A stretch of DNA of 64,000 nt. Source: Hydrolagus colliei. Taxonomy: Eukaryota. The first letter of the stretch is position 1. Each line of letters starts with the position of its first letter. Shown piece by piece: positions 3,533 to 49,474 of this stretch. A program made the position numbers and the translations under genes. The notes beneath the pieces are model-generated. The model was not told the DNA's origin. It searched no databases and was given only the letters and a program-made list of their open reading frames with translations. The stretch spans positions 8,742,001 to 8,806,000 of the forward strand of contig CM068751.1 in NCBI GenBank assembly GCA_035084275.1, read 5' to 3'.

Positions 3533-3832
3533 GATAATAATAATCCTTGCATTTGATACAGCGCTTTTCACATCTTCCAGATGTCTCAAAGTACTTCACA
3601 GAATATACCGTAAAGCAAATTGACTGTATATTTGTGGGCGAAATGCAACAGCAATGACCCACAAACGGCAATAGATTGAATTGACCAATTTTTTTTAATT
3701 TTTTTTGAGGGATTATTACTAGGCGTGTGGAGTAAGGAAACTTGCCCAAGGTTTCGCCCTGACCTGCCTGGAATCGAACCCAGGTCTCTTGCTTGTAAGG
3801 CGAGTGCTCTAACCACTGAGCTACAGGACTCC
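3533..3832 (-). mobile_element. tRNA-derived SINE, full length
   Basis: Matches the SINE consensus on the minus strand. Confidence 0.9.
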
Positions 3833-3998
3833 ACAATGTCTGAAGAGATCATTCAGAATCCATCTTTATCTCTCAGCTGCTTGATGGCAGAGCATCCACA
3901 TCTACATTTCAACCCTGTGCAAACTTTTTCATTCCAGACATCATGTTGGCCAGTCTGAAAAAATTCCAATCGCTACCAACGCATTTCACATCAAACCT

Positions 3999-19403: not shown

Positions 19404-19617
19404 CTGTGTGTGAAAATCATCTAATCAATGGGATTGCAGATTTCGCCCACAAAATATCACTTTACAGTGTGTTCTGTGAAGCTCTTTGAAACATCTGGAA
19501 GATGTGATATGGAACTATATCAAATGCAAGGATTAATTTTTTTTATGGAGCAAAATTACAGAATAGTTCAAATGATTTCTCGCATTATGGAGGGGAAGCT
19601 AAACATTTTTTGAAAAT

Positions 19618-19822
19618 TCTGAAACAAAAGCAGAAAGGGCTGGGAACACTCAGCAGGTCAGGCAGCATCTATGGAGAAAGGAAAAGTGAGTCAACCTTTC
19701 GGGTCCACGCCCTTTCATCTCACTTTTTCTTTCTCCATAGATGCTGCCTGACCTGCTGAGTGTGCACAGCGACTTCTGTTTTTGTTTCAGATTTCCAGCA
19801 TCTGCCATATTTTGCGTTTTTA
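19618..19822. mobile_element. Penelope-like terminal repeat in inverted (hairpin) arrangement
   Basis: ~73-bp inverted arms (19618-19690 and 19719-19791) containing GATGCTGCCTGACCTGCTGAGT. Same family as 48327-48460. The Penelope assignment is recalled from shark repeats. Confidence 0.7.
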
Positions 19823-41065: not shown

Positions 41066-41378
41066 GGAGCTCCTGTAGCTCAGTGGTTAGAGCACTCGCC
41101 TTACAAGCGTGAGACCTGTGTTCGAATCCAGGCAGATCAGGGCGAAACTTTGGGCAAGTTTCCTTACTCCACACTCCCCCTAATAATAATCCCTCCAAAA
41201 AGAACCACAATAATAAAATTGGTCATTTCAATCCACGACTGTTTGTGGGGACACTGCTGTGCGCAATTGGCAGCTGCGTTTCGCCCACAAATATACAGTC
41301 AATTCACTTTACGTCTAGACGTCTAGAAGATGTCAAAAAGCGCTATATCAAATACAAGGATTATAATATTATTATTGT
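41066..41378 (+). mobile_element. tRNA-derived SINE
   Basis: Near-consensus head GGAGCTCCTGTAGCTCAGTGGTTAGAGCACTCGCCTTACAAGCGTGAGACCTGTGTTCGAATCCAGG. Confidence 0.92.
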
Positions 41379-48088: not shown

Positions 48089-48207
48089 GCTCAAAAGAAT
48101 GAAAGGGAATCAATCCGACAGAAGTTGGCACTGGGCAGCTTCTTTGACGATGGTCCAGGAATTTACACCAGCTGTAGCAAGAGTGGTAAACCCAGCCTCT
48201 CTTCACG
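48089..48207 (+). CDS. SCHIP1: SCHIP1 common exon [39 protein letters not shown](R), phase 0-2
   Basis: Acceptor ttgtttgttttcag|GCT CAA AAG; donor TCA CG|gtgagt; 119 nt. Confidence 0.97.
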
Positions 48208-48326
48208 GTGAGTGTTGGGAGTGAAAAATCATTTTTTTTTAAAAACAATCAAGTGCGTTAACATTTATCTGTGGGCAGAGGTCGGGCATCACAGCAAACT
48301 CTCATCTCAGACTTGCTCAACATCAT

Positions 48327-48460
48327 CTGTTGAAGGATGGGTCGTGGACCCGAAACGTTGACTCACTTTCCTTTCTCCGTGAATGCTGCCTGACCTGCTG
48401 AGTTTTCCCAGCAACTTCTGTGTTTGTTTCAGATTTCCAGCATCTGTAGTATTTTGTGTT
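48327..48460 (+). mobile_element. Penelope-like mini-element with a hammerhead-ribozyme-like 5' end and a 14-bp target site duplication
   Basis: Flanked by TTGCTCAACATCAT at 48313-48326 and 48461-48474. Starts CTGTTGA-aggat-GGGTC-gtg-GACCC-GAAACGTT. The body is homologous to 19719-19822. Confidence 0.75.
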
Positions 48461-48494
48461 TTGCTCAACATCATGCTTATCCTACAACAAAATT

Positions 48495-48680
48495 GTTCAA
48501 CAACAAAATTACACTTGTATAGCGCCTTTCGCGTCAGGAGGACATCTCAAGGCGCTGGACAGTCACTGTTTCGAACCCTAGCTGGGGACAGGGGGGGGCG
48601 GAGGGAAGGGGGGGGGATAAGGAGTTGACGATGAGACCATCAAAGAGGAGAGTCTTGAGGCGGTGACTTGAAGAAGGCCA
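48495..48680 (-). mobile_element. L2 LINE 3' fragment
   Basis: Reverse complement of the L2 3' end. Confidence 0.85.
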
Positions 48681-49356: not shown

Positions 49357-49474
49357 CCTTCAGAGTGGAATGAATCTGCAGATCTGTTTCGTTAACGATA
49401 GCGGAAGTGACAAGGATAGTGATGCGGATGACAGCAAGACTGAGACTAGTTTGGACACTCCTTTGTCTCCGATG
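49357..49474 (+). CDS. SCHIP1: SCHIP1 exon (R)[39 protein letters not shown], phase 2-0
   Basis: Acceptor cccgttgcag|C CTT CAG; donor CCG ATG|gtaagt; 118 nt; completes the CG|C Arg codon. Confidence 0.97.

What the first reader, a model, noticed from the sequence alone, without database searches (positions are those of the whole stretch)
48313..48474. 134-bp Penelope-type mini-element that begins exactly at a hammerhead ribozyme core, with a 14-bp target duplication
Seen: a perfect direct repeat TTGCTCAACATCAT (48313-48326 and 48461-48474) brackets an insert starting CTGTTGA-aggat-GGGTC-gtg-GACCC-GAAAC-GTT. That is a CUGANGA-like core, a 5-bp stem II, GAAA and the palindrome AACGTT. The second copy (19686-19720, minus strand) reads GATGA-AAGGGCGTGGACCC-GAAAG-GTT, so together they imply a consensus CTGATGA-A-GGGTC-GTG-GACCC-GAAACGTT. 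Known: Penelope-like element termini carry minimal hammerheads with a palindromic stem III that can work as dimers. Inference: this is a mobile non-autonomous ribozyme-bearing family. This copy is probably inactive (A6 to U, extra bases before stem II, no upstream stem I strand), but it sits in sense orientation 120 nt into a SCHIP1 intron.
Basis: partly seen in the sequence, partly recalled or inferred. Interest (0 to 1): 0.7.

Follow-up and report, generated by a model that had tools for sequence, protein, structure and literature searches.

The report
Penelope retrotransposon stub with broken hammerhead
This 134-base insert in a fish SCHIP1 intron is the short end-piece of a common, known kind of jumping gene (a Penelope-like retrotransposon), and its self-cutting RNA motif is predicted to be dead; the one lead is that about a third of sampled copies start at the same few bases, which likely marks where the element's RNA begins.

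Summary
The repeat, insert and target duplication are real, and a related species has the empty site. The insert is not a separate non-autonomous family. It is the last ~135 bases (hammerhead plus tail) of the pseudo-LTR of a full RT + GIY-YIG Penelope-like element, of Neptune/Nematis type by its linker motif. The genome holds 1,063 exact copies of the intact core. The family motif meets the published minimal-hammerhead definition; this copy is broken.

Of 90 copies picked by a downstream motif, 33 start 2-7 bases before CUGANGA and only 1 at the predicted cut. Best reading: reverse transcription primes inside the 5' pLTR and runs off the RNA's 5' end (TATA-like box, initiator match, weak extra-G excess). 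This step is inferred; no RNA data were available. No clear cleavage footprint was found.

This scan has reported the same kind of stub, and the run-off idea, in other shark and chimaera genomes and elsewhere in this genome. Verdict: new member of a known kind.

The parts
48089..48207 (+). SCHIP1 coding exon upstream of the insert (host gene); intron starts GT at 48208
   Evidence: Pfam PF10148 SCHIP-1_C E 2.7e-9; sequence
48313..48326 (+). left copy of the target-site duplication
   Evidence: single copy at the empty site in organism C
48327..48463 (+). Penelope-like pLTR stub, family positions 0 to +132 (0 = C3 of CUGANGA); its last 3 bases overlap the right repeat
   Evidence: 93-98% identical to the 39 other best genomic matches; same sequence ends RT+GIY-YIG elements
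48327..48338 (+). damaged hammerhead core: CUGANGA with A6 changed to U, the normal unpaired A, then 4 extra bases; no stem I 5' strand upstream
   Evidence: the exact placing of the 4-base insertion is ambiguous
48339..48351 (+). stem II, 5 bp with a 3-base loop
   Evidence: 68-70 of 72-73 family copies paired at each position, 67 of 72 at the first pair
48352..48363 (+). GAAA, palindromic ACGU (stem III of a dimer), predicted cut after 48359 (GUU), stem I 3' strand GACU
   Evidence: sequence; numbering by analogy with PMC4209133
48433..48463 (+). optional ~30-base tail between the two family 3' end points (about +100 and +132)
   Evidence: tail as described in PMC8557442 and PMC11167929
48461..48474 (+). 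right copy of the target-site duplication
19615..19820 (.). second insertion of the family: head-to-head pair (minus-strand arm +3 to +101, plus-strand arm +32 to +132), about 86% identical to the first, with a decayed duplication

Best explanation
The insert is the terminal ~135 bases of the pseudo-LTR of an autonomous Penelope-like retrotransposon (RT + GIY-YIG), inserted with an 11-14 bp target duplication, and it likely arose when the element's reverse transcriptase primed inside the 5' pLTR and ran off the start of the element's RNA just before the hammerhead. Shown: identity with the pLTR end, the empty site, two fixed 3' end points (+100, +132), a sharp 5' boundary at -5 to -3, and frequent head-to-head partners. 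Inferred from the Anolis Poseidon in-vitro work: the endonuclease cuts both strands, and each end primes internally at +132 or +100 on uncleaved RNA. Inferred here: transcription starts at about -4 (initiator match CC|AGTTC, TTAAAAA 29 bases upstream), so priming in the 5' pLTR gives a short run-off cDNA, while priming in the 3' pLTR gives longer, variably truncated copies. The stubs lack the upstream promoter part and the RNA beyond +132, so they are predicted dead ends. This copy's ribozyme is predicted inactive and neutral for SCHIP1.
For: 30 of 30 loci chosen by the GIY-YIG region carry the insert sequence downstream in sense, 26 within 350 nt (one locus is the query's own). 21 of 30 loci chosen by RT do so within the 1.5 kb flank. 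4 of 5 long loci fetched have it directly before the ORF as well. RVT_1 E 5.8e-7; GIY-YIG E 0.0054, below cut-off; 60% identity to a stingray protein. 5' ends: 33 of 90 at -7 to -2, 18 further upstream, 1 at +29; inverted partners 17 of 48 at -7 to -2. Genome-wide: 2,106 exact matches reach -3, only 585 reach -9, against about 1,550 expected at 5% decay per base. Duplications in 49 of 90 against 4 of 444 shuffled pairs, commonest length 14. G before A(-4) in 173 of 365 non-C cases, 47% against 27% by composition.
Against: No transcript 5' end was seen, so the start site is inferred. The extra-G signal is impure: by my reading of 30 loci, about 9 G's come from a partner copy or the target, 7 are ambiguous, 14 are unexplained and only 3 sit cleanly against a duplication. 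The TATA-like box is not canonical, and one subfamily has TTAAGAA. The same boundary also reads as a splice acceptor (CAG|TT). D. virilis Penelope has an internal promoter, and its intron ends at helix I (PMC2377424, PMC4209133). 585 exact matches do extend upstream. The three long elements with a short 5' pLTR start at about +38 to +56, not -4. The priming model comes from a different clade.
Confidence: 0.6

Rival explanations
1. Same origin as a pLTR stub of the autonomous element, but the sharp 5' boundary marks a 3' splice site (or an RT drop-off point at the base of stem I), not a transcription start.
For: Upstream reads as a branch-point-like CTCTAAC/TTTAAC, a pyrimidine tract and CAG just before -2. 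In D. virilis the intron ends at the 5' end of helix I (PMC4209133).
Against: No common upstream exon is joined to the stubs: bases -7 to -13 are mixed in 30 loci, and duplications abut the start directly in several. One subfamily has two AG dinucleotides inside the tract. A structural stall would be expected at the 3' side of the fold (about +32), not after it (reasoning).
Confidence: 0.22
2. The short copies are a self-propagating non-autonomous family (SINE- or retrozyme-like) mobilised in trans by the Penelope protein.
For: Thousands of copies, a sharp 5' end, fixed 3' ends, target duplications. Retrozymes derive from pLTRs (bioRxiv 10.64898/2026.07.22.740005, abstract). An internal promoter as in D. 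virilis would make stubs transcribable.
Against: Both subfamilies appear among stubs (13 and 17 of 33) and among GIY-linked copies (13 and 10 of 27), with no diagnostic column. 0 head-to-tail tandems and 96 head-to-head pairs in 282 loci (loci overlap and are not a random draw). In Anolis the template needs RNA beyond the priming sites (PMC11167929), which stubs lack.
Confidence: 0.13
3. The insert is a host-recruited ribozyme or splicing signal that regulates SCHIP1 pre-mRNA.
For: Sense orientation 119 nt into the intron. The substrate half (GUU|GACU) is intact. An acceptor-like TTTCAG lies at 48427-48432. The insertion may be shared with organism B (contig runs 24 nt into it).
Against: Core broken, no stem I. 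Absent in organism C. One of thousands of dispersed copies. Even the intact motif's active dimer is predicted less stable (-15.7 kcal/mol) than two inactive monomers (-22.8).
Confidence: 0.03

Closest known systems
[quoted passage not shown]
   Same: CUGANGA and GAAA cores, one unpaired base between 9 and 10.1, G10.1-C11.1, palindromic 15.2-16.2 with no loop 3, 4-bp helix I; mostly single dispersed motifs tied to truncated elements; pairs on opposite strands.
   Different: Helix II is 5 bp, shorter than the 7-8 bp reported for Schistosoma. The cut triplet is GUU. This copy is broken. The parts I read name fishes, coelacanth, Xenopus and reptiles but no cartilaginous fish (supplements not read).
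Poseidon of Anolis carolinensis (PAc; Frangieh et al. 2024, PMC11167929)
   Same: Insertions end at two sites downstream of the hammerhead that bound a tail; both strands cut; uncleaved RNA is the main template, with no reads at the cut site.
   Different: This family has a C-x4-C-x2-C linker that Penelope/Poseidon lacks. Its main ORF starts about 170 nt after the core, not at stem II. The parts read do not describe a fixed 5' boundary at the hammerhead.
Neptune/Nematis clades of EN+ Penelope-like elements (Craig et al. 2021, PMC8557442)
   Same: Single ORF with DKG motif, RT, CX2-5CxxC linker and C-terminal GIY-YIG with two cysteines between GIY and YIG; heavy 5' truncation, inverted 5' copy, 30-40 bp tail at one end.
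   Different: Clade assigned by motif only; no tree was built, so Neptune versus Nematis is open.
Non-LTR retrozymes (Li et al. 2026 preprint, 10.64898/2026.07.22.740005)
   Same: Short, non-coding, type-I hammerhead, pLTR-related.
   Different: Retrozymes are defined by head-to-tail tandems; none in 282 loci here.

Membership tests
EN+ Penelope-like element (family as a whole) | ORF with RT and C-terminal GIY-YIG endonuclease | tested here: met
   RVT_1 E 5.8e-7, above cut-off; GIY-YIG E 0.0054, below cut-off; DKG and YIDD motifs. All 5 long copies carry stops or frameshifts.
EN+ Penelope-like element (family as a whole) | pLTRs in partial tandem flanking the ORF and holding the hammerhead | tested here: met
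   pLTR part directly before the ORF in 4 of 5 long loci, and at both ends in 3 of 5
EN+ Penelope-like element (family as a whole) | 5' truncation, inverted 5' copy, optional 30-40 bp tail, variable duplication | tested here: met
   48 of 90 with an inverted partner, 40 of those 48 lacking the tail; duplications 9-17 bp in 49 of 90
Neptune/Nematis clade | CX2-5CxxC linker between RT and EN | tested here: met
   C-x4-C-x2-C in L097 and L098; first C changed in L100; definition from PMC8557442
Neptune/Nematis clade | RT phylogeny | not tested
min-HHR (family motif) | CUGANGA, unpaired base, G10.1-C11.1, helix II, GAAA, palindromic 15.2-16.2, helix I 4-5 bp | tested here: met
   1,063 exact matches; pair counts in 74 copies; the common variants are one-sided and keep pairing. 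No two-sided compensatory change recurs.
min-HHR (this copy) | intact core and helix I | tested here: not met
   A6 changed, 4 extra bases, no helix I 5' strand
min-HHR | self-cleavage as dimer or with protein | not testable with these tools
   needs an in-vitro assay; the genomic footprint test was inconclusive
Non-LTR retrozyme | head-to-tail tandem units, each with a hammerhead | tested here: not met
   0 in 282 loci with a match; not a genome-wide scan
independent non-autonomous family | own diagnostic sequence or lineage apart from the autonomous element | tested here: not met
   no diagnostic column; both subfamilies shared (33 stubs against 38 longer copies)

The most novel reading that the evidence does not exclude
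The pLTR works like the R region of an LTR element. Transcription starts at the first base of hammerhead stem I; internal priming in the 5' pLTR makes a strong-stop-like cDNA of 105-135 bases, which either integrates as a stub or jumps to the 3' pLTR and goes on, regenerating the promoter-bearing partial tandem. The ribozyme stays folded in an off state and rarely cuts the template. The thousands of stubs are then a fossil map of the transcription start and of an intermediate in Penelope replication.
Probability: 0.3. Interest if true: 0.6.

Novelty: new member of a known kind. Interest (0 to 1): 0.3.

Why it matters
The single locus matters little: a dead stub in an intron. The family pattern bears on an open question, how Penelope-like elements build their pLTRs and what the hammerhead is for. 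Copies start at the ribozyme's 5' edge and hardly ever at its cut site. That fits the in-vitro finding that uncleaved RNA is the template, fits less well with the cleave-and-circularise model, and gives a base-level prediction for 5' RACE and for run-off products of purified RT.

Tried and rejected
Rfam scan: no hammerhead family at E<=10; the MIR1507 match at 19653-19757 is only the head-to-head hairpin. Random 5' truncation: rejected by the peak at -5 to -3. Cleavage footprint at +29: 22 matches (21 distinct) against 30 at a control position. After inspection about 17 of 22 were true junctions against about 4 of 20 controls read, but many +29 junctions join an inverted partner through stem-I microhomology, and clean target junctions were 4 of 22 against 3 of 20; inconclusive, at most a small excess. 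Selection on the core among inserted copies: none seen (divergence 5.1% core, 4.6-6.2% downstream). Sequencing runs: no RNA holder listed, so expression, splicing and start sites were not tested. Runs X12 and X8 gave no cover of the junction; organism B's contig ends 24 nt inside the insert, short of the 31-base bridging rule. Pfam found nothing in 4 of 5 ORF pieces. An intact ORF was not sought genome-wide. Lunse et al. (PMC5785218) is not held; seen only as cited in PMC6765202. Paper searches for a strand-transfer or strong-stop model of PLEs and for shark Neptune elements gave nothing relevant; the library lacks most subscription papers.

Full report
Observation. The 14-base direct repeat and the 134-base insert are at the stated places. 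The other 47 identical 14-mer pairs at 50-400 nt spacing in the window lie in microsatellites or SINE copies. Contigs from two runs of another species (organism C) follow the intron to 48327 and continue with sequence matching 48476 onward, so the site is empty there and the repeat is a target duplication. A second sample of the window's species has the insert; organism B's contig enters it by 24 bases only. The upstream exon is SCHIP1. The genome is 1.0 Gb; a cartilaginous fish, probably a chimaera, is my inference from size and from the stingray homologue.

What it is. A search of the own genome gave 2,181 first-look candidates; the 39 best others are 93-98% identical. Several continue upstream through a pyrimidine-rich stretch into a GIY-YIG reading frame. 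Searching from the other side, all 30 loci chosen by the endonuclease region carry the insert sequence downstream in sense, 26 within 350 nt (one locus is the query's own). So do 21 of 30 chosen by RT, where the flank ends about where the pLTR lies. Four of five long loci have it directly before the ORF too. The ORF has the DKG motif, RT, a C-x4-C-x2-C linker and GIY-YIG. By the passages read in PMC8557442 that linker marks Neptune/Nematis, not Penelope/Poseidon. All five long copies have stops or frameshifts. The insert is therefore the 3' part of the pLTR.

The ribozyme motif. The intact 32-base core occurs 1,063 times exactly, the reversed control 0 times. In 74 copies stem I (4 bp) and stem II (5 bp) are mostly paired; the common variants change one side and keep pairing, and no two-sided change recurs. 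It fits the min-HHR definition in PMC4209133 (parts 1-2 of 4 read), including the unpaired base before stem II. Folding predicts an off state in which the core pairs with the cut-site strand (-11.4 kcal/mol per monomer); the active dimer scores -15.7. The window copy has A6 changed, 4 extra bases and no stem I 5' strand. The second window copy is a head-to-head pair folded into a long hairpin.

Ends. I took 90 of the first 100 listed matches, in order along contig C1, of 1,879 exact matches to a motif at +76 to +101. Copies starting after +76 or ending before +101 are excluded, two rows are arms of one insertion, and BLAST ends can be off by 1-3 bases. 3' ends: 78 of 90 at +129 to +132 (the references stop at +132; the printed flanks are unrelated beyond it), 5 near +100. 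48 of 90 have an inverted partner, and 40 of these begin at +88 to +109. This is the two-site tail explained by internal priming in PMC11167929 (parts 1-2 of 4 read). Duplications: 49 of 90 against 4 of 444 shuffled pairs, commonest length 14. 5' ends: 33 of 90 at -7 to -2 (28 at -5 to -3), 18 further upstream, 39 downstream, 1 at the predicted cut +29. Genome-wide, 2,106 exact matches reach -3 and 585 reach -9. The window copy, starting at 0 or -1, lies at the edge of this peak.

Mechanism. A fixed 5' boundary shared by over half the copies that reach it points to a template end. The boundary reads CC|AGTTC, which matches the initiator consensus YYANWYY (recalled), with TTAAAAA or TTAAGAA about 29 bases upstream. 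A TATA plus initiator-like pair is described in a rotifer pLTR (PMC3846280, passages). G precedes A(-4) in 173 of 365 non-C cases against 27% by composition, as copying a cap would give, but about 9 of 30 inspected are explained by partner or target and only 3 are clean. I infer that RT primes at +132 or +100 in the 5' pLTR and runs off the RNA start. When both DNA ends do so and join, a head-to-head pair results. No RNA was available to test this.

Rivals. A splice acceptor at the same place has a precedent in D. virilis (PMC4209133; PMC2377424, passages), but no shared exon is joined to the stubs. A separate non-autonomous family is not supported: both subfamilies occur among 33 stubs and 38 longer copies, no column separates them, and 282 loci show 96 head-to-head pairs and no head-to-tail tandem, whereas retrozymes are tandem by definition (preprint 10.64898/2026.07.22.740005, part 1 of 5 and passages). 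A cleavage footprint at +29 was tested and is inconclusive. A role for SCHIP1 is unlikely.

Novelty. Hammerheads in PLE pLTRs, truncated single copies, inverted partners and tails are in print. I found no paper on a fixed 5' boundary or a strong-stop model, but supplements of PMC4209133 and PMC11167929 were not read and may show such ends or shark examples. PMC6765202 was seen as passages; Lunse et al. only as a citation. The scan's own notes report the same stubs and the run-off idea in other genomes; my reading was written down before I saw them. Verdict: new member of a known kind, interest 0.3.

Noticed in passing
window 48487-48678: A repeat with an AAC-rich end lies just downstream of the insert. 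Organism C lacks it too: its contig goes from sequence matching 48476-48486 to sequence resembling 48679 onward.
   Followed up: partly
window, about 20 copies, e.g. 3648-3834, 41066-41271: A dense tRNA-derived SINE with an (ATT)n tail accounts for the Rfam tRNA matches and most repeat families.
   Followed up: no
window 48421-48432: The stub carries an acceptor-like pyrimidine tract and CAG in sense to SCHIP1, a possible cryptic 3' splice site; no RNA data.
   Followed up: no
L097-L100, pLTR-ORF junction: A short reading frame of about 38 codons starts inside the pLTR and stops at a TAG two bases before the main ATG; that TAG also looks like a splice acceptor, hinting at a 5' UTR intron or reinitiation.
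   Followed up: no
L157, L218, L228, L248: Partial repeats of the first 10-25 bases of the stub stand before its start, as if RT restarted near the template's 5' end; the 4 extra bases in the window copy may be of this kind.
   Followed up: partly
L222-L251: The base before the extra G is T in 20 of 30 loci, in line with AT-rich cut sites or untemplated A additions.
   Followed up: no
window near 49376 and 50373: Two further plus-strand coding stretches that look like later SCHIP1 exons (found with recalled motifs, not checked against Pfam).
   Followed up: partly
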